Below, piece after piece: positions 14,661 to 53,435 of a stretch of DNA of 53,435 nucleotides (position 1 is the first letter of the stretch; the number at the start of each line of letters is the position of its first letter). Position numbers and translations under genes: made by a program. Source of the DNA: Lophium mytilinum (lineage: Eukaryota); NCBI GenBank assembly GCA_010093605.1, contig MU004183.1, positions 2,666,001-2,719,435 on the forward strand. Direction: 5' to 3'. The notes below the pieces were generated by a model. It did no database searches, was not told the origin of the DNA, and worked only from the letters and a program-made list of their open reading frames with translations.

Positions 14661-14791
14661 TTATAAAAAGTAGTAGGTTAGAGTTATACTATAGAAGTAA
14701 GTTTAATATAGAGAAAATTAACCTTTAAAAATTATATATAGTATAACTTTATACTACTATATTTAACTACTATAATATAAAATAGAGTATA
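14661..14791 (+). mobile_element. Short left-end fragment of element X (copy 0)
   Basis: Matches the starts of 19841.. and 26564.. (agaagtaagtttaatatagagaaaattaacctttaa...aaatagagtat). The left flank 14590-14660 has uninterrupted paralogues at ~16331-16410 and, in part, ~16653-16705. Confidence 0.7.
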
Positions 14792-26563: not shown

Positions 26564-26599
26564 TTATAGGGGCTAGAGGGTTAGAGTTAGGTAGGGAGA

Positions 26600-27470
26600 A
26601 GCGAGTTTAATATAGAGAAAATTAACCTTTAAGAATTACGTGCAGCATAACCTTGCACCGCCGCATTTAACCACTACAACATGAAATAGAGTATGCATGC
26701 AAAGAATAATACTTAGAACGCAATATAATAGCGTTCTATTAACTTTAATTTAATTTACAAGCCGTAGTAGTGGCTTAAGGTAGGTATAGAGAGGCCGCAG
26801 GGTACGCAGGTATAGGATAGAAATTACTTAAAGGGTTTAGCGTAAGAACAGCCTCGCGCTTAAGAATTAGTATAACTACTACTACATATAACTACTATAA
26901 TGTAGCATAGAAGAAATATATAAAGAATTATACATAATACATAATGCAATAGTAATCTATTAACTTAGAATTAATATGCAGGCTATAGTAGTAGTAGCAG
27001 TTATATATAGAGGTAAGATTCTAAATAATAGAAGTTACTTAAAGAGTTTAGCGTAATACTAGCCTTATACTTAATAAAGACCTTAACTAGCGCTATATAG
27101 AACCACTATAATACAAGGTTAAAGATATTTATAAGGAAAATTACTTATTATATAATATAACAGCATTCTAGTAATTTAGAAATATTTTACAGGCTGTAGT
27201 TATAGCTCCAGGTGGGTGCAGAGGGTAAGAGAAGAGGGCGGCCAGCAGCGCAGAGTATAGCCCTATAATTAAGTAGCCTTCTACCGCTGCATATAATAAC
27301 TCCTAGATATTAAGATACTATAATAGAGCTATAATACTATATACAGTATATGCAATTAAATTTAAAGCATTATAAAAAAGGCGAAGTCCTAGTAGTAGGT
27401 GCCTATAGAGGGTAATAGATATAATAGAAAGGGTTTTACATTATAATAGCCTCGCCTTAGTATAGGTTGC
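26600..27470. repeat. Degenerate tandem array of ~200-220 bp units near the left end of X
   Basis: accgccgcatttaaccactac (26657), actactacatataactactat (26878), agcgctatatagaaccactat (27089); gaaattacttaaagggtttagcgtaa (26820) vs gaagttacttaaagagtttagcgtaa (27031). Confidence 0.7.
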
Positions 27471-27849
27471 TACTAGATAGTATTCTTATGTAATAGAAAT
27501 TTTAGCCGCATTAAATAAAATATATAAAGTAAAGGGCAGAATACAGTTTATATAACGTTTATAGATAAAGCAATTAATAGAGCTACTACAGGAAGCCTTT
27601 CTACTAGGGCCCTTCCCTAGCAACCTTAACTAAGTGGCCGTATCCGTAAGGGGTATTAAAACAGGTTAGGCAGAGTAAGCCCCACAACAAGAATATTAAT
27701 AAATTCTTATTTTTAACTAATTATACTCCCTAACCGCTTTCCGCTTCTTAGCTCTATATTCTAAACTATTATCCCCCTTACTACTACACCTAGTAGTTAG
27801 CATAGAACACCCCTAAAAGTACTAGAATAAAGAAGAGCGAAAAGCAGCT

Positions 27850-29760
27850 AAATTACGTTTAATAGTAGATTTAAACCGACGCAAGAGAGATAAAAAGAAG
27901 AGGGCTGCAGACTAAACAGCTGCAGTAAGAGAGGCTAGTAAGCCTACTTCTTCTTCTACCCTAGATCCGTTTCTAATTATCTTTAAAAACCCTAGAGGTC
28001 TTTCTAATATAAATATTAGGGCCCCTTATCCCACCCGCCCTGCGCCCACGCCCTTTTAATAACTAATTACACCTTAAAAGCCTTTAGAGGAAACTATTAT
28101 ACAACTTATAATTAGTATATCTTTTATAATCTTCTAGTATTTACGGTTAGGTTCTAATAAACTTAAGTAGAACCCGTCTTAATAGAAAAATTATTACCTT
28201 CTACCTCTACTTAATCTATATAATATACTTCTCCGCAGCAGTCTACTTATAGTAGTACCTGTTCTACTATTCCTCCTCTATATACCTAACCTACGCAACC
28301 TACGTAATATACTCCTTTATAGCGGTCTACCTATAGTAGTATCTATTCTACTACTCCTCCTCTATCTACTAAACCCACCTAATATTCTACTCTAGGGCGG
28401 GCTACTTATAGCAGTACTTATTCTCTCGCTTCTCTAACCTCTTAACCTATTTAACTAACATAACTTTCTTATACCTAGTAGTCTACTAGCAGTAGTATAC
28501 ACTCTAGTAAGTTAAAAGCGGCCTAATATATACCTGAAATTTAAAGTAATATAGAATTAATAGAAGCTGCAGAGCAAGATTAGAGTAATAGTAGTAAGCA
28601 TGCTATTATATAGACTATTAAGGAAGCAGTAGTTAAAGAAGAAGAAGAAGCGGCTAAAGAAAGCAAAGTAAATAAAGAAGTAGCCTAAGCAGATAAAGAA
28701 GTAGAAGAGGCAGTATTAGAGTTACTATTACCTACATCTTCCGCGTTGTCTCCTTATACACCTGCATTACCACCGCCTCTAGATACTAGAGAGGTATTGC
28801 CCTCTCTATTACTACCTTACAGCGTAGGGACACCTTAGTAAGCCGTAAATAATAATAATAGAGCTCTAGGCTAGGTTCTACCCGCTATACACTATCTCTA
28901 TAAAGCGTTTCTTAAACCCGCAGCTATACTACACATATATATAGGCGTATATACTATTCTTACCCTCTAGAATACCCTATAGATAGCTATAACACTATAT
29001 ATAAGTTTACGCGCTTAATAAACTATAGCGGCTCCTACTCCTATATAACTAGAACTAATAATACAACGCTAAATACTAGCCCTTATTACTATATTACTAC
29101 TCTACGTACTTGCGTAAATAACTAATAAAGAGATTATAGCGGAATTATTCTTAGCGCAATAAAATAAGGCTGTAGAAGTGCTCTCTAGAATAGACGCTAC
29201 AGAATAAATAGATAAGGAGAAAATGCTGGCTAATATAAGTTAGTTTATGCAACTAGCGCACAACAACGGTTGGGTTTAAATAGAGTAGTACGCTGCCTTA
29301 TTATCTCTCCGCCTAACGCCAGTAACCGAGGTCGTAGAAGAGGAATTTACCTAATTTAAGAACAAGGTAGAAGCAGGTGCAGATATAGATAAGGTATTAG
29401 ATAATAGAGTTAAAGAGAGTAGAGAAGGTATATATACGCAAGGATAGCAAGATACTATAGATAAATTACCGGGTTTACTTAATAAAGTTACGCTAGAGAA
29501 TTAAGGCAGTAGGGCAGATAATACAGCCTTAAATAGTAAAGGTAATAGCAAGATTACAAACAAAGTTATAGATAAGATAGACCCTAATAGGTAAGTATTA
29601 TAAGCTCTATAGTTTATATAAAGCTAATATATATAGGTATAATAATCTATTAGTAAATACTCTATATATAGTAAGTATAATCTAATTAGCATTAGAAGTC
29701 TAGTATACTTACTATATATCTTAACTCTTTCTATTTAGATAATATAGTAGCTAATATTAT
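27850..29760 (+). pseudogene. RIP-inactivated ORF of X, low-complexity/acidic protein of unknown function
   Basis: Readable frame with EAVVKEEEEAAKE near 28620, ~84-bp internal repeats at 28241/28325/28401, intron-like gtaagt...gctaat...tag at ~29590-29636. Boundaries approximate. Confidence 0.4.
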
Positions 29761-29789
29761 AATATAGCAAGTAACTATACAATAGTTCC

Positions 29790-32480
29790 TTAGAGTAGAT
29801 CTCTTAGCCAAGTTACTAGCTTTCTTCTAGCTTAGAACCTTCCCTCCTAATAAGAGCCTATTATAGCTAATACAGCCTTCTATTTAATAAGCCAACTAGA
29901 GCTATTATAGAGAGAGGATAATCCTAACAACTTTAATAATGTCCCATAGAAATTAATATTAAGTAGAGAAACTAGTAATATAGAAACTCTAAGGCTTAGT
30001 TTTATAAGGTCTAAAGCTAGCTTTATAGCAAATAAAGAGATTAAAATCTAGCAAGTATATAATATTAATAGCGTTATTATTAGCATCTCTACTTTAGCGG
30101 CCTATAATTTATACTTCTTACTATCTCTATAACTATCCTTTCTCTAAAGCATTACTTAAAACTAACGCATTATAATACGCGGCTATAAGCTCTATATAAT
30201 AAAGCAGCTTTATATAGAGTATAGGTATAAGCATTAATTTAAAACTCACGTGTTTTTCCCCTAGATACCGACACTAAATAAGTAGAAGGGCGACACTTTA
30301 CATCTACTAGATATAATGCAAGCAGCTTAGCTTAATAATATTATCTTACCTACAGTAAAGCATACTCTAATACCCGATAAGTAGCAGTATATACTATACA
30401 GTTTCAATATTATATAGGGTAAAGTAAGCGTTAAGAAAGAAAAATATACAACATTATCTAGAGACTCTTATATTAATACTAAGTATACAATTCTATAGTA
30501 TTAACTCTAAGAATTCTAGAACTAAGTTCTTTATAATATAGAAAACTTTACAGGAATAGATACTATACCTAAAGATTTATTTAAAGAAGTATTCCTAGTA
30601 GTCTTAAGTTATAATCTAAAAATAGTATATAAGTCCTTAAGTATAATTTAAAGCAGAGATTAGCTACTATATACTTTAACTACTACTTTTAATAAAAACC
30701 TAATTAATATGCTAGATAAGGGGATATAGGTTAACTATAGATATAAAGATGTCCCAACTACTAATTAGCTAGATACCGGGGTTACCCTTCTACGCAAAAC
30801 TAGCTACAATAACTACTAGGCCACTTACTTCTATAACGGTGGAAAAGAAAAGATTTATATAATATTATACCCCTACCATCTTACCTAGGGCGCATTATCT
30901 CTAACGGTAGAGCTCTAAGCAGGTAACTATAGCCGTATTAGTAGTATAGCATATAATAAAATCTATAATAGTAATAAGATTATGCTTAAGTTACCTATTA
31001 AGAATATTACGCCCTTTTATAATACTTAACTAGAAGCTCTTACATTCTTAACTAAAATAATTAAGTAGTAGTTTAAAGTGGCAGGTAGCTCTAGAGGATT
31101 ATTAAAAAGAAAATAGCTTTAGAATAGTCTTGCTACTATTCTCTAACGCCACTATACTATACTCTAGAGAGACAGATACTTATCCTATAGGGTTTAAACC
31201 GAGTTCCAAGTACTTCTTACTATACTTAAGCAACTTAAAGAAAGCGCAAGTCCTAAATTCACTATAAAGAATAGGCTAAATAATAGTAGTAAGCCTTATT
31301 ACCCCTACTAGGTTCTTTCTATAGAAGAAGTTAATGCCTTTACTATTATAAACCTTAATTACTAGGTATTTCTTTTCTAGGTACTATCTCTTTAGGTTAC
31401 CCCCGGGCGTAATACTAGGCATATAGCAACACTAGATAAACAGCTAGTAAATAGTTATTTAGCATCTCTTTATATCCGCCTTACGCAAATTACTACTAGA
31501 TGTAGTAATTCTACTTAATTATCCGTACTATAGAAAAAAGAGTAGATAAATTAAAAAGACCCCTAGAATCCTATAACCTTATATAGCCTTAGGTTATTAG
31601 ACTCCCTTAAGAAGTATAGCATAGCTTAGCTAAAGTTAGAGTACTTAGATTAGATAACAACGCCCCTATAACTTAGCCCTTAAGGCGTTAATTGACTGCA
31701 AGCCGGCCTTAGAAATTAATTCCAAGCTATATTTACTAAAGCTTAGATCTAGGTATCTCTTACTAGAGAGGATATAGAGATGTAGTATCTATAGTATAGT
31801 ATTATAGCATAGTACACGCTAGCTATTTAACACAAAAATAGGACTAAAGTGCAAAAAGATTAGCGATTAGCACCGCTATAGATGGGTAAGGCAGCTGCGC
31901 TTATTATTAAGGCATACTATACCAATATATATAAGCTTCTAAGTAGACAGTATATAGAAGAAGATAGAAATACTAAAATATAATAGGAGAGTAAAGAACT
32001 ACGCAACTAATTTCTTAAGAGTATTCTAAATAGATCTATAGTTACGCTTTATTCTAACATACTTATAAAGCTATATAGAAAGTTAGAACTTATAGTAAGC
32101 TACACCTATATATAGAATATAGCTAGAAATAGTAATATAAATTATCTAAGGCACTTAACTAGACGCTAGATTAATTAAGTCTAGCCGCTATTTAACATTA
32201 CAGATCCAGCTGCAGAAACTTAAAAATAGAACAACAGTTCCTTCCGCATAAAATTGCGAAGATTAAATGCAATAATTAGAAACAAAGCGTTACTAAAAAC
32301 AGTAGAATAATTCCTTAATAATCTATAAGTAAGAGCCGCCTTATTACTCTAGGTTCTTCTAAGATACAATAATAACAAAATTTTAACCACGCGTTAAGCT
32401 AAATAAAATAACTCTAAAGATACATAAGATAATATTAGGGGAAGAGATGTAATTATAAATATATAGTAGATCTATATATA
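29790..32480 (+). pseudogene. RIP-inactivated large ORF of X (~850-900 codons), family not identified
   Basis: Long frame whose stops are at RIP-type codons in the parts translated; reverted motifs YDIDSV, HVFFP, WVDxGYEDVP, KIYNxxK, SYGVRTEFQV. Ends approximate. Confidence 0.55.
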
Positions 32481-32502
32481 ACTACTAAATAGCTACTACT
32501 AT

Positions 32503-32693
32503 TATTAGGGCTTAAGGTTAAAACGTTGGATTAAATAGTATTAATATTAACAAAAGATAAATACAAGAGAGAAAGAGGTTCCTAGAACGGACGTTGTAAT
32601 AACCTAAAGGGCGGAGCAACATTCGCCTATTCTATAGAGCCTTCATTACGTGACCTCTAGTTACGTATTATGCGCAATTATATAGCTATAACA
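32503..32693 (-). repeat. 3' LTR of gypsy B
   Basis: tattagggc...ctataaca; direct repeat of 40864-41054. Confidence 0.93.
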
Positions 32694-35600
32694 CGTCTCC
32701 CCCCTCTAAAGAAGCCCCCTAATTAAAGCCTTCGTAAGAGAGAGTTCTTTCTATGCTAGAGTATCTATAACCACTTAAATATCTATTAAATAAAGTGCCC
32801 AATCGTGTTACAACTTAAGTAAACAAAGGAAATAAATTAATTTTGTAGAGGATCGCTTATCCTTCCTATTTTTCATGCAGCCTTCCGCAGCCTTACTATT
32901 TAGTGTAGTGTCTAACCGACTCTAACAGTTTGCCAGTATTACCTCGCGCAGTGCCATCTTATTATTCATTTAAACTGGGGCCGGCTATAACAGGGCCGTA
33001 AGAAGCTATATAGCCTTTATAGCTGCTAGCCTACTACTAGGTACTTATAATAATCTGCGCTATTATATCGCATTTAATTATTGCGCACGTCCGCGGTTAG
33101 GCCTCCTTAATAAATTAATTTAACCGCCAGTCTAGTAATTAAGTTACGTAGCTTCCGCAGCGTTAGTTATACGGAGGTCCATAGCGGCGAGGATAGCAGC
33201 TAAGGTTAGTTTCTAGTCTAATAGTGGTATAAATAACGGGTAAGGTTCTAGCTTCTTAGAGTAGTAGTAGTAGAAGTCTACTATAAGATATAGATAACTA
33301 TCGGCATAATTATAGTTATTCTATTAGGGTTTATTATCCCATCCAATAAACTTAATTTTATATTGCAGCATGCCCCTTTTCCCTATAGCAGGGTTAAGTT
33401 ATCTTCTATTAAGACGGTAGTTAACAACCTCCTTAGCGTTACCTTTCTAATACGTTGGCGTTATCTATATAGGTAGAGGCTTAGAATTACGCTATCCTTT
33501 TATAGGAACTACGTTAGCCGGGTGGAGTAGCCAAGAATAGAAGATAGGGTGTAGGTTTTCTATACCCTTAGGTAGCTTAAGTTTATATGCGCTGCCGTTT
33601 TCATAGCTTTCTAGAACTTTAAAGGGGCCCAGCTTCTTAAAGTTAAGCTTCTTATTTAGGCGGTTCATTTTAATAAACTATCTATTAAGTATAACTTAAT
33701 CGCCTAGATAATATATATATGCTAGTCGTCGTCCTGCGTTAGTATACTCTTTTTACTTAGCTTAGGCCCACTTAATCTCTATACAGAGAAAGGCGCAAAG
33801 CTTATCTATCCTAGCAACAAATTTGTCTGCAAGCTTTATAAGACGAACTGTTAGCGCGTTTGCATTATCGGGCAGTTATGCAGCTAGTATAGTGCCTGCG
33901 CTAGGAATATAGCCCTTAGTAGCTATAAATAGCGCTACTCCTATAGAGGCGTTCTTTAATAAGTTAGCCTTAAATTTAGCAACAGCAAGGAAGTTACACT
34001 AGTTATCTTGCTAGTAGTTAATGTATGCCCTAAGGTATTACTTCAAGCCTATGTTAGCAACTTCTGTTTATCCATCTATCTTAGAATAGAACGCTGTAGA
34101 AAGCTTTAGTTTTATTCCAATGCATTTACATAGGTGGGACTAGAAGGTTAATATAAATTATAATCCGCGATTAGATATAATAGACTCTAGGTATTCTTTA
34201 GTGCGCTAGACCTATTCTAGAAAGGCTTATGCTACTTCTTTAGCCTCCGTTATTACCATTAGAATAAACTTGCGCATCTTAGAAAGTCTATTAATAACCA
34301 CTATAACGTATTAGTAGTCTTATCCAGCTTGTATACATTTAGGCAGTAGGCCAATAAAGTTAACCGTAAGGTTAGTCTAATATCGTTCAGGAATTAGCAG
34401 TAGTTTAAGAAAACCTTGCTTTACCTCTTATGCGTGCTTAATGCGATCACATAGCTAGCAGGCCTTAATATAACAGTCGACGTTAGAGGTTATTCGTGGC
34501 TAGAAATAGTACGTTGAGACACGGTCGTAAGTAGACGTAGTTCTACTATAACTAACTAGCGGAGGCTTATATAGGCTTTTAATAATAGCTAATTAGAGTT
34601 CCTCTTTTATAGAAATGTATAAGCGGTCTTTTTAAATAAAAATAAGGCCGTTATAAATTATACAGTCATGGAGTTTAAGCTTAACACTATAATTTTTAAC
34701 TATGTCAGTAGGGAGGCGGCGTAGCTTAGCTCCGATAGCGTCTTTAATAGCGTTGGCAACAGTGTTATTAGTAAGGGCCTCTCGTATACAATCCACAATG
34801 TCTTATTCTACGGCACCATTAGCAGGGTTATTCTATAACTCCCCCTGCCTACCTAGTAGCTCCTATAGTTTATTATTAAGGTTACTCTAAGACTCCCCTT
34901 AATTAAGTTCTATTTTACTAAGGTTATATATTATTGCTACAAGGGAGACTACGTTATAAGTCACGCCGTTAGTTATAATGTTAGCTAGTTTAATAGCGTA
35001 ATGCATTCCTAGTTTAAGATTATAGTCCTTTAAGATGGTTTATTACTAAATCTTATAGCGCTTGTTGTTTTCGTCCGGTATATTACCTGGGCGCCTAGTT
35101 AGCAGGTCAGCTTTACTATTATCCTTGCCTGGCCTGTATATAATCTAGAAGTTAAACTTAGAGAGAAATTTAGCCTATCTAGCCTATTATTAGTTAAGTT
35201 GCTTAGTCTCTATAAAGTATTATAGGGTCCAGTAATCTAAAAGGACTTTAATAGAATTACTATGCCCGTAGCCGGCAAGTTCTATGCGCCATTCTTTAAA
35301 GGCGCGGACGATTACTAGAAGTTCTTTATTATAGATTTAATAATTAAGTTAAGCTGCGCTCATTTAGTAAGACATAAACGCGATAGGGCGGAGGACTCCG
35401 TTAGCTTACATTTAAGATAGTATAGCGGCCGTAACAGTGTTAGATACATTACATTCCACCTACGTCTCTAGGTCTAGATTAAAATAAGCCATCTAAGAAG
35501 CGTTAACAAACGCTTGTTTTATTTATTTAAATAAAAAGTCTTTAGAGCTGCCTTCCTACTATAGAAAGGCAAACCACTTATAGACCTCAGCCCTAGTAAG

Positions 35601-40863: not shown

Positions 40864-41054
40864 TATTAGGGCTCAAGGTTGGAACATTAGATTAAATAGT
40901 ATTAATATTAACAAAAGATAAATATAAGAGAGAAAGAGGTTCCTAGGACGGACATTATAATAATCTAAAGGGCGGAGTAACGTTTGCCCGTTCCGCAGAG
41001 CCTCCATTACATAACCTCTAGTTACGTGTTATGCGCAATTATATGGCCATAACA
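40864..41054 (-). repeat. 5' LTR of gypsy B
   Basis: tattagggc...ccataaca; direct repeat of 32503-32693. Confidence 0.93.
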
Positions 41055-42584: not shown

Positions 42585-45500
42585 GCTAGCTATAAATACC
42601 TTAAGTAATAGGGACCCTAGTAAAGTAGTAGTAAAGGTTGCATCCCTATATATATTACCTGCAACTAACCTAGTAGATAGCTATAAGAAATAATCTACTT
42701 CTTCTAAAGTACTAGAAGATCTAAATTCTACCTTCCTACTAGTTACTAAATTAGGGGTTAATACCTATAGCGATTTAAAGCGCAATTAGCCGGCCACTAT
42801 AATAGATCTAGAGACGCTTACATTAGTAAATAGCAAAGTAGTTTATCTAGATAGTAATAACTATAGTAATAACTCTAATGTCCCTAAGAACTCTAATAAA
42901 AAGTAAGAGAAGATTTAAGCGCTAGTTACTAGCAGTAGGAGAGATAAAGAGTTAGAGAAGTTATAGGCCTTAGTAAACACGCTGTATACTAGTAGAATAA
43001 AGTTAGCTAAGCTTTATAGTTAAATAAAAGCAGAACTTAAAGTAATTCTAGCTAAGCCTAATTTCTAAGCAATTTAGAATAAGTATAAGGATAGGTATTT
43101 AGACCTAAAGCGCGCTATATATAGTTAGGATTAAGAGGCCAGTTTTACTACTATCCTAAACGCTTTTAAGACTAGCGAGTTATATAATCTACAGCAATAT
43201 ACTACTCCTTAGCCTAAGATAGATAACTATAAACCCGTAGATTAGGCAGCTTAATTTATTAGTTAATACTTTAATTACTACTAGAAGCGGTTTAGTAGGT
43301 TTTTATATAACCGCGCTAATATTACTAATAATAAAGCGCTTAGAATCTTCTTTAAATTAAAGAAAAATATAGAATTTAAGAGTAGCCCGTTTTAAGCCAG
43401 TAGAACCGCCTATACTAAGAACTAAATTAAGATATAGAATGTTCTTTAAAAAACAAAGCTTAGTCTAGCACCGGCACCTAAGACCCCGGCCAAAACCATT
43501 ACTTATAGCAGTAAGAATATTAACAGGAAGCCTTTCTATTAAGGCCCTTCTAGGCCTCCCTATTAGCAGTCGCCCTCTTATTTTACTAAGGAGGAACTCG
43601 CGGCCATTAATATAGAGGTTAACGTAGACAACCCTATCTAGGGGTTATCTAAAGAGGAAATTGCTGCAAACCTAGTTAATAAGGAGAAAGGCAATATTAA
43701 TATTACTAGCGCTAAGTACATTACCGGCACTATAAAATAGGAGCTTAAGTTAGTAATTACGCATGCTAAGCACACTAGAGTAATAATTAACCGGAACTTG
43801 TTAAAGTTTCAATATAACGCATATTAGGTAATTAGATAGATAGCAGGAGATTTTATATATACCGTTAAATAGCACCTAAATATGCGCGCTGCAGATCTAA
43901 ATAAGGATAAGTACGCTAATCTAGACGGTATTAAACATGCCTAAAATATAAAGGCTAATATAAGGGCTACTACTATTAATGTAAAGGATATTATCCCCTT
44001 TACTATACTAACCGCGGCAGATCTTACAACGTAGAGTATACTCCGCCTTCTAATAACTAATAAAGCCTATTAGCTAGATAACCTTAAAGAAGCAATAAAG
44101 GCCCTACATATTTATAACTATTAGGAACCCCGCCTTATTATAATAAATAGCAATATTTACTTAAGGTAGTAGTAGATTACCGGGGCTTACTATATATACT
44201 ATATTATATAGAAAGGCTTTCTTAGTAGGGCTTTAATTATAGATAAGGTTAGTATTAGAAAGACATTTTTAATAGCTACCCTTATTAGATATATAAGTAA
44301 TTTCTCTTTAAAGGGTGTTAATAGAAAGCCTTTCTACTACCCCCCTAATAGTTTCTCTTAGCATCTACTAATTTAATTATAGCTTATTGCTAAGCGCCAG
44401 CGCAAAGTTGCAGATAAGAAAGACCCCGGGCCGGCAAAGCCCTTTCTTTTTCTTATGCCTCCCGTTTTAGTACACTAAATAGCGAATAAACTTGCAAAGT
44501 TTAGTTCTAAACTTAAGCTCTATATCTATTTATTAAAGGGCTAAGTTACTTTCTATAGCACTACGTTTCTATATAACACCTTAACTAGGGACTATCCCTT
44601 ATTTAATACTAAAAACGAGGCGAATACTAAGAGTATTATAATCGCTAGCTATTAGGTAATAGCCGGTTAGTATAGTCCCCAGCCCGCATTAAAGTAGTAT
44701 AGCGATAATAATCTTACTAAGCTAAAGAACTAGGTTAAATATTACCTAAGCTCTACCTAGCCCGGTCTTTTAAGTAGCTATTTTAACGTCTAATTTATAG
44801 ATAAGTACTAGCTTATTAAAAGCAACTAAGTAAACCTCTACCTAACCGCGTTATAGCTTTACTTAGACTTTACTATACTCTATAGTAGGACCCCGCTATA
44901 TATAGGCATTACTAATATACCTACTTATATATCTTTTATAGAACTAAGAGATAAGCATCTATAATTCCGCACGTACCGCTTAAAACCCGGTAAAGCTAAG
45001 TTTATTCCAGGTACTAATAATCCGTTTAAGCTTTCTAATAACTATTTAGGTATAATTTTCTAGTATACACGCAAGGCTTTTAAAAATTTTATTCTACCTT
45101 TATTTAACCCGTAAGTTATTACATAAAGGGCCCTAGCAGAAAGGCTTCTAGCCAGGGCCCTTATCTCTCCTCTTATTTACTTTAATTTTCTAACATTTCT
45201 CTAGGATTATATAGGGGCTTTATTTACGCTTAATTTTTAGTAAGTGCATAATTGCTTACTTATACCCTTCTACATGCCTAAATAATTCTACTAATCCTGC
45301 TACCCGAATTAGAGGATTACTTCCGCGGTTAGTTACGCGAGTAATTAAGCTATAGCCTATAAAACTAGGCCATATTATCTATACTAATAAATCGCTAAGC
45401 TACCTTAAGTTATTAATAGTTCCTACTAAGAACTGCGTAGGCTAGCGCACCTATACATTTAACGCATGCTCCGTGCATGCTCTTAACCTTATAAGTACTG

Positions 45501-47970
45501 CGCTATTTTTAGTCTACTCTAAGCGCGCTATAATAGCATATCTGCAAGAGGAGGTCTTAAATTTAGAGGGCAACAAGATTAAGAACAGCCCGAAAATTAT
45601 TCCTCTTAAGAATAATGGCGGTTACTAGTTACAGGAAATAGACATTTTGCGAGGCATAATAAAGTAAATTGCCCGGAATAAGAATGTCTAAACTAACTCT
45701 AATTAGAAAGACTTTAAAGTAAAGTCCGCATTCTTTTATTATATTATCGCCCTTTTTATCTATAATGCCCCTAAAGTAGCTGCACTACTATACTATTTAG
45801 CTAACAACGTTATTAAGCGTATAGAGAAGGTTATTATCTAGACTAACTACCTAGATAAGTAAATAATTCTCGCTAAGATTATTAACTATTACAAAATAGA
45901 TGCTTATATATTAGCCTCCAATCTCTCTACTACTAACCGGGACAACCTTATCTTAGTATTTAACAACCCTAACTCTAAAGTAAAGATCCTTATTACTAGT
46001 TACTAGGCTAATAGAGCTAGGCTTAATCTATAGTCTACTTACTATAATATATATCTTTTTAACCCTACAGGCTCTATTTAGATTAAGGAGCAGGCGATAG
46101 CGCGTTTATATAGAATTAGCTAGAAGTTTACTATTATAGTAACCGCGTTCTTTATCTAGAACACATTTAATGCCTTTACTCTCTCGCGCCAGGTATAGAT
46201 AGCGCTTCCTGGTCTTGCTACTGCGTTAAACACTAACTAGATTAAGGTAGAGGGGACCTCTAAGAAAAAGCTAACCCTAGATAGCTAGTATGCGTAGGTA
46301 ACCTATAATAATAAGAGTATCGCACCCCGCCTTATTACAGGTAAAATAGATATTTTAAATATGCTAGTGGAATTATATATTAAGCGCTTTAACTTCCTAT
46401 AAGATATTCTTATATTTCTAATAACTCTTATATAAGGTAATATAACTTTTTAGTCTAGTAGGTTTAGCAATAAGTTCTAAAAAGAACAAGCGTACGAATT
46501 TACTAAATTAGAATTAGAAGAAGAGTAGAAGAAGGGTGCAAGTAGAGCGCCTAAGAAACCGCGTGTTAATAAGCCAGGTTTAAGGCTTAAGCGTTGTCCT
46601 GCAAGCAGTAAGTTCGCCCTTATAGGTTCTAGCAGGAAGGCTTTCTACTAGAGCCCTACTTACCTCTTTATAATTTGCTAATCTGTATTTTATAGTAAAA
46701 GCCACCCTAAAGCTAAAGCTAAAAACGCTAGAGTAATAAAATAGTAAAGCTTTAAAGTAGAAGCGCAAAGCTAGTACTACACTAGCGGCTGCCGTTAAGA
46801 AGTGTAAGCCTAACCCTAAGTCTACTATTATAGTTAAAGACTTAGATTCTACTAAATCTAATATGCCTACCCCTATAAAGAGCGCCACTAGAAAGGCTTA
46901 TGCCCCTTTTATCTATTAATATAGGCCAGAGCATAACCCTTTACATTAAGTACCCGCTATTTTTAGTAATATAAACGGCGACAACTCTTTTAGTAGGCTA
47001 AATAGTAATAACTCTAAAGGTAAAAAGTATAAGAATAATACTTTATTCCTTATAAAGTATATAGATAAGAATTTATCCTAGGGCCTTTTTAGAAAGCCTT
47101 TCTACTAGGGCCCTTTAGTATCGCCTATTATATTACTTAAGTGCTAACTATTATAGCAGCTCCTACTTCCGCCCGTTAACCCACTTTAACTCTACCTTCT
47201 AGCCCTCTTAGCACCTTTAATAGACGCCTTATTAGGACCCCTTCTATAGACCCCGTCCCGTCGCCTAATATATAGAAGAAGAGGTAGCGCAAAATATCTA
47301 CTATCTCCTTACAGGATTCTATAGATAATCTAGTTTTTTATTTACTACTAAAAGCTAACATTAATATAGATAATAAGCAGAATAAGAAGAATATTAAAAC
47401 CCCCGACGTTAATATAGAGAACGTCCTATCTAAGACTAATAAGTAAAATAGGGGGTATCTTAATAATTACCTGGATTTTACTACTACGCTATCTAAAGTT
47501 GCCTTTAAGTGTAACAGCAACTATAGTAGTAACTTAGACAACCCGCCAGAATTTATAGAAGGGGCCTTGCAGCCAACCCTAAAGACTATATTCTCTAGCA
47601 ATACTAATAAGGGTTAGAAGCACTAAGACGTAAAAAAGAAGCCCACTATAAAGAAGAATAAAGCGGCTAAGAAAGACTCTATATCTAAATCCCTTATATA
47701 TTATCTATATAAGTATATAATAGAGAAAGAGATTACTAAGTAGCGCCCTTAGCGCGAAAGGAAGGCTACTAAGAAGAAAGCTACCGCGCAGAAGTCTGCA
47801 AACTCTACTAGACCGAAAATAGACCTACGCAGGCGGAAGAATAATCCTAATATTAGCTAACCGCCCGCGGCATTAGGTGCAAATACTAACCCTAATAGTA
47901 AAGAGAATAGCAGTAAATTAAAGAGAACTAGCATAGCGCTAGAGAAGTCTAATAGTAAGGTATAACTAGT
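42585..47970 (+). pseudogene. RIP-inactivated SNF2-family helicase/ATPase gene of X, with introns
   Basis: Reverted motifs in consistent frames: LRWWQITG (44161), motif I GALIVDEVGIGKT (~44227), motif II FVDECQLIKS (44800), motif III SGTP (44884), motif V GAGLNLQ (~46013), motif VI EQAIARLxRIGQ (~46090). Intron 45111-45204 links the frames correctly. Gene ends approximate. Confidence 0.8.
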
Positions 47971-50452
47971 AGAGTCTTTATAAGAAGGCTTTCTATAGGG
48001 GCCCTAGCCCTACTTTTTAGATTTAATTTAGCATCTCTTAATATCTTTTTCTTTTTCTTTCTAATAGTTCTAATTAGGACTACTTTCCTTACTATTAGTT
48101 TGCACCTACTTACTTAGTACTACTAACTTTTTACTATTCTAATTTCTTGCTTGCGTTCTATTCCCTACCCTCTAATAGTTAGCACTACTCTATAGTAGTA
48201 GTACACTTTATACCCTTAAAATCTCCTAGTTTATATTTAGCCTCTAGATAGCGGCTTACTTAACTATAGAATATAGCGTAATATTTACTACTATAACTAT
48301 ACCTTACGTATCTTATATATAATATAATATTTATTTTATTTATCTATATTATAGGGGGCGGTCTTATCCGCCGTAGTTTATATAGTTAGAGAGGGTAATT
48401 ACATTCTAATGCTGCTCTATTGTATCTACACTATTAGCATGTGCTCCCTATCTTTTTTATAGTAAAGAATCTACTATTATATACCCTATAATTTAACCCT
48501 CTTTGCTAATATTAATTACACGGCTAGGCTAAGTCCTCTCTATAGACCCTATCTATTAATACGCTGTATATAACTTTATTCTATCTATAGTTTTCTAAAG
48601 CGTATATTATTGCATAATACCTAAACTAACTAGAAGGAGGGTTATTTACATATATTGTTGTTAAGTCTTTAGCGTACTAGGCGGCGGAAGGCAATTTAGG
48701 TGTCGCAGTTATACTTTCTAGTTTATCGGCGATATATTTAAACCTACTTATTATTAGTAAGGATAGTAATTCTTAAGGGGTTACAGTCTTACCGTTTATC
48801 GCTTTTAATATAACTTTCCTTCTTCTTATAGTTATAAATAGTCTCTATATTATAAATAGAACTACTCTTTTATTCTAGTATTTTCCTTTACTTCTATTCT
48901 TATAGCCGTCTTAATAAGCGCTTTAGCCGTATAAGCTTCCTCCTTGCAACTAAATCTAGAGTGGTATTTACAACCTCGCGCCTAGACAGAGTATTAGGCG
49001 TAGTAAGGAAAGAAGCTAACCGCTCTATTAGAATATATATATTAGGTAGACGTAGATATATCTACCCCTACTAAACATTATCCTCGGCGTTTAGAGTTGC
49101 TATGCTGCTGCACGTTAACCTTAGTATACCGGGCTATATTTTATATACTTTAGCCTAGTTTAGGGTTGCAGCCGTCTCTATATTAGGTTAAGCCGCTTCT
49201 TATCTTATAAATATCCGCCGGAACGCTCTAGAAAGGACGTATATAGTATACTAATTAAGACTTATATATAGTATTATGCGTGGGCTGCTACTATACTATA
49301 AGGGGTAGGTAGTAGTTAGAAAAAGGTTTAATACGCTAGTTTCTATTAATCTTAGTATATTACGTGCTAACCTCTTATATTATACCTATACTTATAATTA
49401 ACCTTTAGAGGTTAACTCTATATACTATATATAAATAGCAGCTCTAAGAGTTTTATTTTATTACTATACTATATATATATTTTACCTTAGGCGGGACTAG
49501 TAGGTCCCTATAACGTATAGTTTACGTAACTATACCCTGCGTCGCTTCAGCGCCCGCCCGATTTACTCTTCCTCTCTTTTCTTACTCCTTTAGCTTGTTC
49601 CTCTCTACACTATAGCTATAGGTAAACTAACAGCTAGAACTAGCATAGAAGAGACTCTTAATTATATTTAAAGCACTTTAGAGAGATAGATTAATAGTAC
49701 ATAAAGTTTTAAAGCTGGTAGGCTGTAGGAACACCTATATAACTAACTTAGAAGAGTAGCACGCTAAGAATAGCACCGCCACAACAGGCACACTAATAGG
49801 CTCGGGTACTATTACTTAGAACCCTCTTCTTAACCCTAATATACCTAGCAATACCGCAGATCTCGCCGCATAAAACGCCAGAAAGAAGTCCTTATTATTT
49901 ATTTCTAAAATAACTTCTAAGCTAGCTAATATAGACTAACTCTATACAACTAAACTGCTTACCGCGGAGGATACTACTAACCCTACCTACATCTATGCCT
50001 AGAGAGAAGCACTTTTTATAACTATCTAGAATTAAAACGGAGGTTCCCTCTTTAGTAATAGCCTAGGCACGCCTACTAATACTACTTTTAATATGCAGCC
50101 TACTATAACTAAGTCTTAAACTCTCTATAACTATACTAACCCCCTATCCTAAGCTACTAGAAATAGCGCCCTACCTTTTAAGTCTAATATTAATATTAAG
50201 CCTAAACTAGCCAATAAAGTTAATATAAAGATTAAGCCTAGTATTAAGATTAAGCCCGGCCTTATAAGTAGCCCGGATACTACAAGTTTTTTAAGAATAA
50301 TTCTAAGAATAAGGAGCTTCTACGCTTACAGATTAATATAGAAGAGAAGAAGGCAAGGGCTATATAAATAAGGTTTAAGGCTATAGCTAGAGAGTAGAAG
50401 CAGTAGGGCCTAATCTACTCCTAAATCTAAACCTTAAATAGAAGTAGCAGCG

Positions 50453-51691
50453 CCCTAACCTATTTCTATCTCTACGCGCTTATTAGTAAATACCTAACTC
50501 TTTATCTAGCGCTACCAGGCCCTTACTATCTTCTAACCTATCTTCTCCTTTAATAGTAACGCGTCTCTACCCTTCTAGAACTGCACCCTAGCCCTCCACG
50601 CTACCTACGCGGAAATTATCTAATAGGCTTTACTCTTTTACTTTATCTTACTCTTATTTTCTTCTTTAATAGCTTTATCTCTACTCTTCTACTATTAGTC
50701 TTATTTTCTTCTACTATAGTAGAGCCTCTAGACCTAACTCCTAGTAACGGCACTAGTTTACCCTTTACTACTATAGTAAAACCTAAAGATTTATCTTCCA
50801 TTACTACTACTACCGCGTTACTAACTTGCAAGCCCTAAAATTGCGGACATTATAGAAAGAAAGCCACTCTAAGGTGCAGTCGCTGCGCCAGCGTTATCTA
50901 CTGCAATGCGGATTATTAAAAGGCTAACTAGAAATTATCTAATGCGCCGCCTTCTTATATAAAGGTTATTATACTATAATAAGACTTCTATACTTTAGCT
51001 TAAATTTACTAATAGATAGCAAAGAGCGTAAAGTTTAGCGGATTATTTAAGGGGTAGAAATTAAAACGGGTTCCGGCTCTATTATATAACTATAAGCTGC
51101 GATATACTTTACCTCTTATAAACTTAGCCCGCTACACATAAATATAGAGTCTCTCCTACCTAAGTGCTAAAGAATAACTTCTAGTAGAGTAGCTACAGCT
51201 ACTCTAGCTTATATAGATTAAACTAGCACTCTACCTTAGCCTTCTTAGGCTAGCCTTTAACCTTATATATATACTAGCGTAGGCAGTAATAATTATTCTT
51301 ATTCTTCTTTTATACTAAGCTTAATTACTACACCGCTTTCTAGCTTTAAGAAGAGAAAGATGGAGGTTACAACTCCCCTTAGTAGTTAGAACTCTACCTA
51401 CGCCCCGCCATTAATAGATTAGACACGCGGAGGCTCTATTCTAGGTGCCCTAAGCGTGCTATAAAATCTACTTAGCATTAATAAGTTTAAAAAGTAGCAT
51501 AAAGCCGCCGTTACCGCCGCTAGAGCCTAAGCCTAATCTACTCCCTAACCTATCCCTATCTCTATACGCTTATTAGCAAACACCCAGCTCTTTATCTAGC
51601 GCTGCCAGGCCCTCGCTATTTCCTAGCCTATCTTCTTATTTAATAGTGACGCCTTTCTACCCTTCTAAAACTACACTCTAACCCTCTACGC
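50453..51691. repeat. ~149-bp direct repeat pair (50453-50600 and 51543-51691)
   Basis: ccctaacctat...ctctttatctagcgct(a/g)ccaggccct...ccct(c/t)(c/t)acgc present twice. Confidence 0.85.
50842..50965 (+). pseudogene. MYND-type zinc finger relic within a RIP-inactivated gene of X (~49600-51900)
   Basis: Reads CGH(C)(G)KKATLRCSRCASVIYCNAD(C)(Q)KA(D)(W)K...(H); parentheses mark RIP-reverted codons. Confidence 0.7.
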
Positions 51692-52788
51692 CGCCGGCTC
51701 CCCCTACTCCTTTATAACTACTAGCCCCTGCACCTTAAAGAAAGAAGCTAAAGAAGCCGCCTCTACTCTTAGCCTTACCCTCCTCTCCTCTCTTAAAGCC
51801 TTAGGTACAGTCTCTACCCTAAGTAAAAGTAAAAAATACACTCTAACTCTAACTTCTACTACTTCTACCCCTAAAGAACTCTAAGAAAACTTTACTAGTA
51901 TTCTTATAGAATTCTACTAAGCCTCTAAAATCCCTATTCTAACCTTTGCTAAGTTTAAAACCAGCACCTACTTCTCTACTAAGCTATTGCTAGCCTTATA
52001 CTACTAGTTAGACACCCCCTTTAGCGGCCGCGCTATACTCTACCTATTAAAGAAAGCGGCTTATATAGCTATAGTAAGAAAGGCGGTACTCTAGCTATAT
52101 ATAGAGATAGCTACCCGCTATATATAAGCCCGCGTCTATAAAGAAGTAGTAGAAGACAGTAAAAGGTTCTAAGAACACCGCGGTGTAGCTGCTAGGTAGT
52201 GCGGCGGCGCGGGTGCTAGCGCTAGCAAGCGAGCTAGGGCTACCGTAGCTAGAGTATTAGTAGGCGGCGCTAAGTGCGCTAGCGCCGGGGCTATCTATAG
52301 TAAGTAGTTTATTCCCAGGGAGTAGAGTAGGTAGGGAGGATAGAGTAGTAGTAACAGTAAGATATATAGTTAGAAAGAAGGCGGCAAGAAAGAAGTATGC
52401 GCGGTTAATAGTAATAGAGTTAGAAGAAGTATTAGAGAGGAGGAAGGGGGTGTTAGAAAAGGTATTAAAGAAGGGAAAGAGGAAGGTAGAGATAAGAAAG
52501 AAGGATAAGAACTATTATTCTTATTAGGAGTATAGAGAGACATATAATAGGAACTTATTTATACTTACTTAATTTAGGTTATAGTAGGGGAAGCATATTA
52601 GAAGTATAGTAAATAGAAAGTATAATTACTTCCGCAGTAATATAAGGGTTACTATAGAAAGGCTTCCTATAAAAGCTCTATAAAAAATATTAGTATAATA
52701 TATATATATAAAAAAGATATATAAATTTATAATTAAAAGAATCTCTATAGAAAGCCTTCTAGTAAGAACACTATACTATAATTTAAAA

Positions 52789-53217
52789 TATTTCTATAAT
52801 ATACATTAAAATAGATATATACTTAATAGAATTTAAAGAAGTATTTTATACTATATACTAGTATATAGACATATATTACGCCTAATAAGACTAATAGAAA
52901 TATTTCTATACTATATACTAATATGTAAGTATAGGGTACGCCTAATAAAGCCTTAATAAATGTTTCTATAGTATATACTAAGATAAACGTATATAGTACA
53001 CCTAATAAAATTTTACTAAATATTTCTATACTATACGCTTAATAGTAGGTATATAGTACGCGTCTAGGGATTTTAGAGATACTTCTATACTATACGCTTA
53101 CTAGTAGGTATATAGTACGCGTTTAGGGATTTTAGTAGATGCTTCTATACTGTACGCTTACTAGTAGGTATACAGTACACATAACAAAATTTTACTCAAT
53201 GTTTCTATACTGTACTA
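52789..53217. repeat. Telomere-adjacent tandem array of ~60-bp units (~7 copies), each with an internal inverted repeat
   Basis: t(a/g)(t/c)ttctatact(a/g)ta-like starts at 52841, 52901, 52961, 53021, 53080, 53140, 53200; unit core tactgtacgcttactagtaggtatacagta. Confidence 0.85.
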
Positions 53218-53235
53218 CTGGTCGCCCGCTAGCAC

Positions 53236-53251
53236 AGGGTTAGGGTTAGGG

Positions 53252-53292
<41 letters not shown>

Positions 53293-53294
53293 GG

Positions 53295-53335
<41 letters not shown>

Positions 53336-53337
53336 GG

Positions 53338-53378
<41 letters not shown>

Positions 53379-53435
53379 GGTTAGGGTTAGGGTTAGGGTT
53401 AGGGTTAGGGTTAGGGTTAGGGTTAGGGTTAGGGT
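53236..53435 (+). repeat. Telomere, (TTAGGG)n with three TTTAGGG variants
   Basis: Uninterrupted G-rich repeats to the window end, oriented as a right chromosome end. Confidence 0.98.

What the first reader, a model, noticed from the sequence alone, without database searches (positions are those of the whole stretch)
26564..53235. Unclassified ~18-kb multi-gene mobile element (X) with a SNF2 helicase, ending at the telomere
Seen: the same left terminus (ttatag(g/a)ggctagagggtt...gagaaaattaacc, more diverged in copy 0) occurs at 14661, 19841 and 26564 in three unrelated flanks. The longest copy holds several intron-containing relic genes (unknown large ORF, SNF2 ATPase, MYND finger), tandem arrays near both ends and a private palindrome. 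I found no LTRs, TIRs or RT, and recognised no DDE transposase or Starship-type tyrosine recombinase near the left end. Inference: X is a large mobile unit that fits none of the fungal classes I can name (Ty3/Ty1, Starship, Helitron with PIF1, Academ with RecQ, MoTeR).
Basis: partly seen in the sequence, partly recalled or inferred. Interest (0 to 1): 0.9.

Follow-up and report, generated by a model that had tools for sequence, protein, structure and literature searches.

The report
Telomere-end SNF2-helicase repeat, RIP-decayed
The last 27 kb before this fungal chromosome end is one copy of a many-copy, mutation-riddled 18-kb repeat carrying a dead SNF2 motor-protein gene; it looks more like a helicase-bearing chromosome-end repeat than a proven new kind of jumping gene.

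Summary
The same left terminus occurs at 14660, 19840 and 26563 in unrelated flanks. The longest copy is 18.1 kb once a Ty3/gypsy with a 5-bp target duplication is removed. It ends at a TTAGGG telomere.

- It carries a RIP-killed SNF2 ATPase gene.
- It has a weak MYND-finger relic.
- It has tandem arrays near both ends and a private ~40-bp palindrome at 12-14 sites.
- Public-run contigs show the unit in roughly 10-35 copy-equivalents, and copies that join 32497 to 41055 without the gypsy.

I found no transposase, recombinase or reverse transcriptase, but RIP makes these searches insensitive.

Several features fit a telomere-associated helicase repeat (Y'/TLH-region-like) better than cut-and-paste transposition:

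- Three same-orientation copies are stacked here. Each keeps the centromere-side end and, in the two older copies, lacks the telomere-side rest.
- A retroelement is cut off at the junction and never resumes.
- The terminus is telomere-like.
- RIP decay decreases toward the telomere.

The closest described case is the 26-kb X3X3R8 SNF2/Rad6 repeat of Parastagonospora nodorum. My verdict: a real repeat, a new variant of a known kind, with mobility unproven.

The parts
14660..14792 (+). X copy 0: about 133-bp fragment of the left terminus, the most decayed copy
   Evidence: blastn 85.5% to copy 1 and 75.7% to copy 2; 96% in purine/pyrimidine alphabet
19840..21690 (+). X copy 1: left 1.8 kb only, ending inside the 84-bp tandem array
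   Evidence: 1772 bp at 88.5% to copy 2; 99.7% with transitions collapsed. 207 of 228 differences are transitions, and 192 of these have T/A in copy 1. Sequence read.
21700..26563 (+). Context: 5' part of retroelement A, cut off just after its RT domain by the left terminus of X copy 2. No remainder lies further on in the window.
   Evidence: RVT_1 E 1.5e-4 at 26139-26541, profile positions 53-203 of 205. Between 39001 and 53235 there are no RT, RNase H or integrase hits.
26564..32502 (+). X copy 2, left part
   Evidence: continuity across the gypsy shown
26564..26600 (+). Telomere-like degenerate terminal motif (TTATAGGGG CTAGAGGG TTAGAG TTAGG TAGGG)
   Evidence: Local alignment score 29 against (TTAGGG)12. 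This is the second-best locus among 45-nt windows (every 5 nt) of 14-53.2 kb, where the 99.9th percentile is 28.2. Under RIP-tolerant scoring it is only among roughly the top ten loci.
26656..27225 (+). Tandem array near the left end, unit about 211-221 bp, about 2.6 copies (also present in copy 1 at 19933-20502)
28191..28506 (+). 84-bp tandem array (copy 1 breaks off inside its counterpart)
28500..29700 (+). Possible gene relic with an acidic stretch; no homologue found
   Evidence: Translation P0005; Pfam gives 0 hits at E<=1
32503..41054 (-). Nested Ty3/gypsy B, not part of X. LTRs at 32503-32693 and 40864-41054; target duplication ACTAT.
   Evidence: Pfam RVT_1 1.5e-26, RT_RNaseH_2 7e-18, SH3_Tf2-1, Integrase_H2C2 and RVP_2. 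LTR pair 87% identical, 100% with transitions collapsed. Target duplication.
41055..53235 (+). X copy 2, right part, running to the telomere
42943..44307 (+). SNF2 gene relic: N-terminal region up to motif I (DKVSIRKTF, matching DKVGTGKTF in the homologue)
   Evidence: phmmer against 1.84 billion representatives: P0006 E 2.7e-32 and P0009 E 3.7e-19. In the alignment, the window has TAG or TAA where the homologue has W or Q.
44422..45258 (+). SNF2 gene relic: N lobe. Motif Ia is PFLFLMPP; motif II is D-K-Y-stop, matching DECQ in the nearest homologues; motif III is SRTPLY.
   Evidence: hhalign 99.7%, E 4.4e-26. 8 of the 11 hits that I scanned carry Pfam SNF2-rel_dom.
45773..46195 (+). SNF2 gene relic: C lobe (helicase motifs IV-VI), in a different frame from the N lobe
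   Evidence: PDB 1z3i Rad54-like E 2.5e-6 and Rad5 6l8n E 0.0077; Pfam Helicase_C E 0.0015
41589..47998 (.). Cluster of the ~40-bp palindrome (consensus aaagggccctagtagaaagSctttctactagggcccttt). Centres lie near 41609, 41735, 42384, 42517, 43531, 44216, 44329, 45143, 46640, 47097 and 47988. Further copies lie at 27596, 52662 and, in copy 1, 20873.
   Evidence: The copies at 44329 and 45143 lie in short insertions relative to homologues, where the reading frame breaks.
47100..47985 (+). Lysine-rich small ORF relic lying exactly between two palindromes; no homologue found
   Evidence: Translation seen; Pfam gives 0 hits
50560..50913 (+). MYND-finger gene relic (finger at 50839-50913)
   Evidence: 92-aa open stretch; zf-MYND E 8.6e-4, below the Pfam cut-off
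52785..53215 (+). 59-60-bp tandem array abutting the telomere
53236..53435 (+). Telomere (TTAGGG)n, about 33 units

Best explanation
X is a telomere-associated, helicase-bearing subtelomeric repeat unit. It is the SNF2-type counterpart of yeast Y' elements and of the RecQ 'telomere-linked helicase' regions of filamentous fungi.

Proposed mechanism, largely inferred:
1. A chromosome end erodes or breaks, here inside resident retroelements.
2. The end is healed with telomere repeats.
3. It then copies a whole X unit from another end by recombination-dependent replication. This is primed in the telomere-like tract that forms X's centromere-side boundary.
4. Repeating the cycle stacks same-orientation X copies. 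Each keeps its proximal end and has lost its distal part. The youngest, full-length copy lies next to the telomere.
5. RIP then mutates every copy, killing the SNF2 (Rad5/16/Rad54-like) gene and the MYND gene.

Shown: the unit itself, its copy number, its genes, RIP, and the layout of this chromosome end.
Inferred: the copying mechanism, the telomeric distribution of the other copies, and any role of the SNF2 protein in end maintenance.
For: - The full copy ends at the telomere behind a 59-60-bp array.
- Three left ends lie in the same orientation within 12 kb. Copies 0 and 1 have lost their distal parts (133 bp and 1.8 kb remain).
- Retroelement A is cut at 26563, right after its RT domain. 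No RNase H, integrase or LTR remainder lies distal to X. A nested insertion would leave such a remainder.
- The first ~37 nt of X are the second most telomere-like locus of the 39-kb AT-rich region under strict scoring.
- RIP decay falls toward the telomere. The index (CpA+TpG)/(ApC+GpT) is 0.05-0.09 and GC is 22-26% over 14-26.5 kb. In X copy 2 and the gypsy the index is 0.36-0.56 and GC is 32-38%. Copy 1 holds the mutated base at 192 of 207 transition differences from copy 2.
- Summed contig depth is higher over the left part than the right part. In run X1 it is about 5000-6400 against 2100-4400, with exact single-copy pieces at about 160-190. This fits many distally truncated copies. The implied 10-35 copy-equivalents is of the order of the number of chromosome ends in such fungi (that comparison is recalled, not tested).
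- Precedent: full and truncated helicase regions with interstitial telomere repeats at Fusarium chromosome ends (PMC12857005, passages). In Leptosphaeria maculans, 935 kb of 'telomeric repeats' include a RecQ telomere-linked helicase (PMC3105345, table legend).
Against: - Only one chromosome end could be seen. No genome is held, so whether other copies are telomeric is unknown.
- The telomere-like motif is degenerate. Under RIP-tolerant scoring it is not exceptional: LTR starts and an 18-bp array score higher. No perfect TTAGGG tract lies at any of the three junctions.
- A sharply defined terminus in unrelated flanks is also what a transposon gives. A read-derived fourth junction puts X's left end 38 nt from an internal gypsy RT position (table 5c).
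- The helicase is SNF2-type, which has not been described for such elements. Searches found none.
- The copy estimate from summed contig depth is rough. The tool itself warns that it is not a copy number.
Confidence: 0.45

Rival explanations
1. X is a large DNA transposon of an unrecognised or undetectably decayed type. It inserts into other repeats. The three left ends are three insertions whose right-hand parts were lost by later rearrangement or terminal deletion.
For: The terminus is identical in three (by reads, four) unrelated flanks. There are tens of copy-equivalents. A read joint 29582->44436 suggests internally deleted derivatives. A private palindrome occurs in both halves.
Against: Six-frame Pfam scans of X found no transposase, recombinase, Rep or RT, although these scans are insensitive here. 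There is no TIR or LTR. No right end or target duplication can be seen. The remainders of A, of copy 1 and of copy 0 that nested insertion predicts are absent distal to copy 2.
Confidence: 0.25
2. X is an amplified block of ordinary host genes (SNF2 repair-type helicase, MYND protein and others). It spread by segmental duplication and was then destroyed by RIP, as was proposed for the 26-kb X3X3R8 family of Parastagonospora nodorum. It has no dedicated mobility and no special tie to telomeres.
For: Hane and Oliver 2010 (PMC3017866, passages) describe a RIP-degraded 26-kb repeat holding three Rad5/SNF2-like helicase genes, a Rad6/UBC gene and two unknown ORFs. The window's host is probably a related Dothideomycete (80% protein identity to Bipolaris maydis). 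X's SNF2 belongs to a fungal 'rad5,16'-type clade (named hits from Aspergillus ibericus, A. avenaceus, Plenodomus lingam, Cenococcum and Emmonsiellopsis).
Against: Segmental duplication does not predict one exact boundary reused in three or four unrelated flanks. No UBC domain was detected in X. Homology to the SNOG genes of X3X3R8 could not be tested.
Confidence: 0.2
3. X is a decayed member of a known giant-element class, a Starship (tyrosine-recombinase 'captain') or a gene-capturing Helitron, whose mobilising gene is too RIP-damaged to see or lies in a lost part.
For: The size and multi-gene cargo fit. All three copies have A before TTATAG, and undoing one CpA-to-TpA change would give a Helitron-like 5' A|TC (inference). 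Pfam misses even the true SNF2 N lobe in this copy.
Against: No DUF3435 or Rep hit appears in any frame of the first 6 kb or elsewhere. The helicase is SNF2, not PIF1. No 3' CTRR plus hairpin end can be assessed, because the copy ends in a telomere.
Confidence: 0.06
4. X is a giant telomere-attached retroelement (MoTeR/FoTeR, Penelope-like or Terminon-like). The shared proximal end would be its 3' end and the truncated copies would be 5'-truncated.
For: The proximal end is constant, the distal end is variably truncated, the junction is telomere-like, and the location is telomeric. FoTeRs show exactly this truncation pattern, with the 5' end toward the terminus (PMC12857005).
Against: No RT was found outside the two gypsy elements. 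All recognisable X genes read toward the telomere. That is the opposite of the orientation that target-primed reverse transcription at a chromosome end produces.
Confidence: 0.04

Closest known systems
X3X3R8 repeat family of Parastagonospora (Stagonospora) nodorum SN15 (Hane and Oliver 2010, PMC3017866; passages read)
   Same: Large (26 kb versus 18 kb), multi-gene, RIP-degraded, multi-copy repeat in a Dothideomycete. Its recognisable genes are Rad5/SNF2-like helicases plus uncharacterised ORFs. No transposase is known.
   Different: X3X3R8 holds three helicase genes and a Rad6/UBC gene. X shows one SNF2 gene, a MYND relic and no UBC signal. X3X3R8 was read as an endogenous gene cluster and, in the passages I read, was not called telomeric. 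Sequence homology between the two was not testable here. The paper's additional files are old .xls files and were not read.
Telomere-linked helicase (TLH, RecQ) regions of filamentous fungi, and the L. maculans 'telomeric repeats' (PMC12857005 and PMC3105345, passages; Magnaporthe TLH recalled)
   Same: A helicase-bearing repeat block next to the telomere. Full and truncated copies occur, RIP decays them, and interstitial telomere-type repeats lie at boundaries.
   Different: The helicase family is SNF2, not RecQ. X is longer and carries extra genes, a private palindrome and internal tandem arrays. Presence of X at many chromosome ends is not shown.
Saccharomyces cerevisiae Y' elements (recalled, not looked up)
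   Same: A subtelomeric unit that encodes a helicase, is bounded proximally by telomere-type repeats, is found in tandem at ends, and is spread by recombination rather than by a transposase.
   Different: The helicase family is unrelated and the host lineage is different. X is three times larger and is inactivated by RIP.
Starship giant transposons (PMC9156397 and PMC10104507; search listing and abstracts only)
   Same: Giant multi-gene repeat of Pezizomycotina with cargo-like genes.
   Different: No DUF3435 tyrosine-recombinase 'captain' was detectable at the left end, and no target-site signature is visible. In the listing, the eight Starship-titled papers I examined show 0 occurrences of SNF2.

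Membership tests
SNF2-family ATPase (the gene inside X) | N lobe with motifs I, Ia, II (DExx) and III | tested here: met
   phmmer hits to proteins bearing SNF2-rel_dom; hhalign 99.7%, E 4e-26. Motifs were read in the alignments. All are damaged by RIP-type changes.
SNF2-family ATPase (the gene inside X) | C lobe with helicase motifs IV-VI | tested here: met
   PDB Rad54-like 1z3i E 2.5e-6. Pfam Helicase_C E 0.0015, 19.2 bits, below the 23.5-bit cut-off.
Subtelomeric helicase repeat (Y' / TLH-region type) | Lies directly next to the telomere and encodes a helicase-superfamily protein | tested here: met
   X ends at 53235 and (TTAGGG)n starts at 53236. SNF2 gene.
Subtelomeric helicase repeat (Y' / TLH-region type) | Present at many chromosome ends in one orientation | not testable with these tools
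   No genome is held. Reads show only a high copy number.
Subtelomeric helicase repeat (Y' / TLH-region type) | Telomere-type repeats at the proximal boundary or between stacked copies | tested here: inconclusive
   Degenerate motif: second-best locus under strict scoring, not exceptional under RIP-tolerant scoring. No perfect internal TTAGGG arrays.
X3X3R8 family (P. nodorum) | Rad5/SNF2-like helicase gene or genes in a large RIP-degraded repeat | tested here: met
X3X3R8 family (P. nodorum) | Rad6/ubiquitin-conjugating enzyme gene, and sequence homology to the SNOG genes named in the paper | tested here: inconclusive
   No UQ_con hit in six-frame Pfam scans, but sensitivity is low. The SNOG sequences could not be fetched.
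Starship | DUF3435 tyrosine recombinase as first gene at the 5' end | tested here: inconclusive
   No hit in 26.0-32.5 kb in any frame. RIP hides even the true SNF2 N lobe from Pfam.
Helitron | Rep/PIF1-type helicase protein; 5' TC and 3' CTRR with a hairpin | tested here: not met
   The helicase is SNF2 and no Rep hit was found. The 5' end reads TT (TC only if a RIP change is undone). The 3' end cannot be assessed.
LTR retrotransposon / TIR transposon | Terminal direct (LTR) or inverted (TIR) repeats | tested here: not met
   No repeat joins the first and last kilobases of X.
Telomere-targeted retrotransposon (MoTeR / FoTeR / Penelope-like) | Reverse transcriptase ORF, with the element's 5' end toward the chromosome terminus | tested here: not met
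   No RT outside the gypsy elements. X genes read toward the telomere.

The most novel reading that the evidence does not exclude
X is an autonomous, transposase-less giant element that colonises chromosome ends. A telomere-like terminal tract lets it be copied onto any healed break. Its own SNF2 translocase (with a ~550-aa family-specific N-terminal region) and its repeated palindromes serve that copying. This would be a self-propagating 'end-seeking' DNA element of fungi, related to the unexplained X3X3R8 repeats of other Pleosporales.
Probability: 0.15. Interest if true: 0.85.

Novelty: new variant of a known kind. Interest (0 to 1): 0.5.

Why it matters
Helicase-bearing repeats at chromosome ends (Y', TLH) are thought to support recombination-based end maintenance. 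So far they involve RecQ or Y'-type helicases.

A SNF2-type unit of this kind would widen that picture. It would also offer an explanation for the large SNF2-containing RIP-degraded repeats noted in Parastagonospora in 2010 and not followed up in any other paper of the held library ('X3X3R8' occurs in 1 paper).

If the unit instead proves to be truly transposable, it would be a new class of giant fungal element. The stacked, progressively older copies at this end also give a readable record of repeated break, heal and re-capping events.

Tried and rejected
Genome and earlier findings
- A whole-genome look was not possible, as no genome is held.
- Earlier findings of this scan: none for this genome. 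Word searches gave nothing relevant.

Domain and structure-database searches
- Pfam on whole six-frame read-throughs of 39001-53235 gave 0 hits at E<=0.01.
- Smaller six-frame scans also gave 0 hits: 46600-53235 (E<=0.1) and 29700-32502 (E<=1).
- 14001-19839 gave 0 hits, so the filler between copies 0 and 1 stays unidentified.
- P0004 and P0005 gave no Pfam hit.
- Simple regex motif scans for SNF2 and MYND found nothing useful.
- PDB search with the N-lobe frame P0002 gave 0 hits.

Homologue and context searches
- Word-indexed homologue searches found none. One used the RIP-damaged C lobe and one used P0006, both among longer proteins.
- ESM Atlas on the P0006 N-terminal region gave only sub-threshold leads (Rad54_N, score 0.84).
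- The metagenome locus search with the N-terminal alignment found no relative.
- The same search with P0010 returned 80 loci, none close to X proteins by tblastn; only L001 matched P0172 weakly. No gene-order comparison outside this genome was therefore possible.

Structure prediction
- AlphaFold2 on P0006 with a 2-sequence alignment gave mean pLDDT 35.7. That is too poor for a fold search, so none was run.

Considered and rejected
- I considered that the AT-richness might be native composition, for example viral. I rejected this because differences between copies are 91% transitions in CpA context and 90% of changes in reads are transitions.

Full report
**Setting**

The window has ordinary genes up to about 14 kb (GC about 51%). 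It then has 39 kb of AT-rich DNA (GC 19-39%) that ends in about 33 TTAGGG units. The AT-rich part bears the marks of repeat-induced point mutation (RIP).
- TpA/ApT is 1.65-1.95.
- (CpA+TpG)/(ApC+GpT) is 0.05-0.56, against 0.68 and 1.3 respectively in the genic part.

A psi-producing oxygenase gene at 6999-10001 is 80% identical to that of Bipolaris maydis. The host is therefore a Pezizomycotina fungus, probably a Dothideomycete. No whole genome is held.

**The observation**

The left terminus is real.
- blastn of the window against itself aligns 19840-21611 with 26563-28334 (1772 bp, 88.5%).
- It also aligns 14660-14809 with 19840-19988 (85.5%).
- With transitions collapsed, copies 1 and 2 are 99.7% alike over 1778 bp. 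Copy 0 is confined to 14657-14792.
- Of 228 differences between copies 1 and 2, 207 are transitions. In 192 of these, copy 1 has the T or A, mostly in CpA context. Copy 1 is therefore the older, more mutated copy.
- The three upstream flanks are unrelated to each other.

A minus-strand Ty3/gypsy occupies 32503-41054.
- Pfam gives RVT_1 1.5e-26, RNase H, integrase zinc domain and protease.
- Its 191-bp LTRs are identical once transitions are collapsed.
- It is flanked by the duplication ACTAT.
- Removing it leaves an X of 18,120 bp.

**Is X one unit, and is it repeated?**

Contigs of two public runs from one sample were laid on 26400-46399 at 80% likeness or better.
- 5092 pieces (run X1) and 5118 pieces (run X2) matched, spread over all identity classes.
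- In X1, 2019 of 2245 places with a change are transitions.
- Pieces identical to the window have depth about 160-190 in X1.
- Summed depth in X1 is about 5000-6400 over 26.4-32.4 kb, 2100-4400 over 41-46.4 kb and 1500-3300 over the gypsy.
- This suggests very roughly 10-35 copy-equivalents of X, with more left parts than right parts. The tool warns that summed depth is not a copy number.
- A joint from 32497 to 41055 skips 8557 bp, with 5 letters shared by both sides. Two contigs carry it in each run, at depth 1944 (X1) and 586 (X2). Other copies therefore lack the gypsy and join the two halves directly.
- The shorter side of that joint is only 22 nt, so this is moderate support. The target duplication gives the same answer independently.
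- A rarer joint 29582->44436 hints at an internally deleted derivative.
- Another record puts X's left end 38 nt from an internal gypsy RT position, which is a fourth flank.

**Genes**

No ORF longer than 105 aa survives in 26-53.4 kb. I therefore read frames through with X at stops.

The SNF2 gene:
- The plus-strand frame 42496-45285 (P0002) was searched against 1.84 billion protein representatives. It found 43 proteins at E<=1e-3, of which 4 were at E<=1e-10.
- Two hits cover residues 150-614: P0006 (E 2.7e-32) and P0009 (E 3.7e-19). Both are metagenome 'hypothetical proteins'.
- Most of the other hits cover residues about 640-900. Of the 11 hits I scanned, 8 carry Pfam SNF2-rel_dom.
- The P0006 alignment runs from the 'unknown ORF' straight into SNF2 motif I (…LRWWQLTGAH…ADKVGTGKTF).
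- A profile built from nine of the hits matches residues 643-921 with 99.7% probability, E 4e-26. Motif II is of the DECQ type, as in the nearest homologues.
- The C lobe lies in another frame (P0003). It hits Rad54-like 1z3i (E 2.5e-6), Rad5 6l8n (E 0.0077) and Pfam Helicase_C (E 0.0015).
- I looked up names for 27 of the 43 hits. The named ones are Pezizomycotina proteins, among them a 'DNA repair helicase rad5,16' of Aspergillus ibericus and a split 1601-aa protein of Plenodomus lingam. The latter shares the region just before motif I with P0006.

Other genes:
- The MYND relic at 50839-50913 scores E 8.6e-4, below Pfam's cut-off.
- Two further plus-strand stretches look protein-like but have no detectable relatives: 28.5-29.7 kb, and 47.1-48.0 kb, which is lysine-rich.
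- The N-terminal region of the SNF2 protein has no Pfam family. ESM Atlas gave only sub-threshold leads. The AlphaFold model is unusable (pLDDT 35.7).

**The palindrome**

- A ~40-bp palindrome has the core TAGAAAGSCTTTCTA flanked by CTAGGGCCC arms.
- The core gives 20 matches on both strands at 12 sites, against 0.58 expected. Its largest count in 100 shuffles was 3.
- All 12 sites lie in X: one in copy 1 and eleven in copy 2. None lies in the genic part, in the filler, in element A or in the gypsy.
- Two more degenerate copies lie at about 41609 and 45143.
- The palindrome occurs in both halves of X, which again ties them together.
- The copies at 44329 and 45143 lie in short insertions relative to homologues, exactly where the frame breaks. 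The first coincides with the point where the metagenomic homologue is split into two predicted proteins, P0009 and P0008. They may sit in introns.
- Other copies bracket the lysine-rich ORF.
- What the palindrome does is unknown.

**What X is**

No LTR, TIR, RT, DDE transposase, Rep or tyrosine recombinase was found in X. This is weak evidence, because Pfam also fails on the genuine SNF2 N lobe of this copy.

The layout of this chromosome end is more telling.
- Three X left ends lie in the same orientation. Each is older and more truncated the further it is from the telomere.
- Retroelement A (21700-26563) is cut 22 bp after the end of its RT match. Nothing of its RNase H, integrase or 3' LTR follows X.
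- Nested insertion predicts that the remainders of A, of copy 1, of the filler and of copy 0 reappear distal to copy 2. They do not.
- A terminal deletion could have removed those remainders, so this is not proof.
- X begins with TTATAGGGG-CTAGAGGG-TTAGAG-TTAGG-TAGGG. This is the second most telomere-like locus of the AT-rich region under strict scoring (score 29; 99.9th percentile 28.2). Under scoring that forgives G-to-A changes it is not exceptional.

Together with the telomeric position, the distal 59-60-bp array and a helicase-superfamily gene, this matches the pattern of helicase-bearing subtelomeric repeats.
- I compared it with Y' of yeast (recalled, not looked up).
- I also compared it with the TLH regions of Fusarium, which occur as full and truncated copies with interstitial telomere repeats (PMC12857005, passages).
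- A further comparison is the 935 kb of 'telomeric repeats' of Leptosphaeria maculans (PMC3105345, table legend).

I therefore favour, at 0.45, a cycle of recombination-driven re-capping: break, heal, and copy an X from another end.

Rival readings:
- An unrecognised DNA transposon: 0.25.
- An amplified host gene block, as proposed for X3X3R8: 0.2.
- A decayed Starship or Helitron: 0.06.
- A telomere-attached retroelement: 0.04. It has no RT, and X's genes point the wrong way.

**Comparison with what is known**

The nearest described object is the 26-kb X3X3R8 family of Parastagonospora nodorum. It holds three Rad5/SNF2-like helicase genes, a Rad6/UBC gene and two unknown ORFs. It is RIP-degraded and was read as an endogenous gene cluster (PMC3017866, passages only).
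- Its .xls additional files, which may say where the copies lie, could not be read.
- 'X3X3R8' occurs in no other paper of the held library.
- Two searches for a SNF2-type telomere-linked helicase element found none (83 papers, 15 listed, 12 papers, 10 listed; listings and abstracts).
- Sequence homology between X and X3X3R8 was not testable, and no UBC relic was seen in X.

**Verdict**

- 'Mobile element of a new class' is not shown.
- A subtelomeric, SNF2-type helicase repeat is the better reading: a new variant of a known kind.
- Interest is 0.5.

Noticed in passing
window 14001-53235: RIP decay falls toward the telomere. The index (CpA+TpG)/(ApC+GpT) is 0.05-0.09 and GC is 22-26% over 14-26.5 kb. 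In X copy 2 and gypsy B the index is 0.36-0.56 and GC is 32-38%. The end looks as if it was built outward, oldest inside.
   Followed up: partly
window 44290-44390 and 45105-45215: Two copies of the X palindrome lie in short intron-like insertions of the SNF2 gene, where the frame breaks. One is at the point where a metagenomic homologue is split into two predicted proteins. They may be introner-like or MITE-like elements. Splicing was not tested.
   Followed up: partly
window 50405-50475 and 51516-51565: There are degenerate C-strand telomere-like tracts (CCTAA/CCCTAA-type). The one at about 51516-51565 is the top-scoring telomere-like locus of the AT-rich region. Both lie just upstream of, and run into, a 150-bp internal repeat (50453-50605 = 51543-51695).
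   Followed up: partly
window 16357-16949 and 14549-14661: A 296-bp unit is duplicated in tandem (95% identity). The flank just left of X copy 0 (14549-14661) resembles part of it (16291-16402). The 5-kb filler between copies 0 and 1 gave no Pfam hit in any frame.
   Followed up: partly
window 29582 / 44436 and 35966 / 26573 (read joints): Contigs of the public runs join 29582 to 44436 with 11 extra letters, which may be an internally deleted X derivative. They also join an internal gypsy RT position to X's left end through 38 letters that resemble the 22-bp repeat upstream of copy 1 (19779-19830).
   Followed up: no
window 6999-10001, minus strand: An intact 1001-aa open frame encodes a psi-producing oxygenase / linoleate diol synthase (animal haem peroxidase domain, with P450 in homologues). 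It is 80% identical to the Bipolaris maydis protein and lies 4 kb before the AT-rich block.
   Followed up: partly
window 10480-10605 and 11023-11147: An inverted 127-bp repeat (81% identity) lies in the genic part of the window. It was not examined.
   Followed up: no
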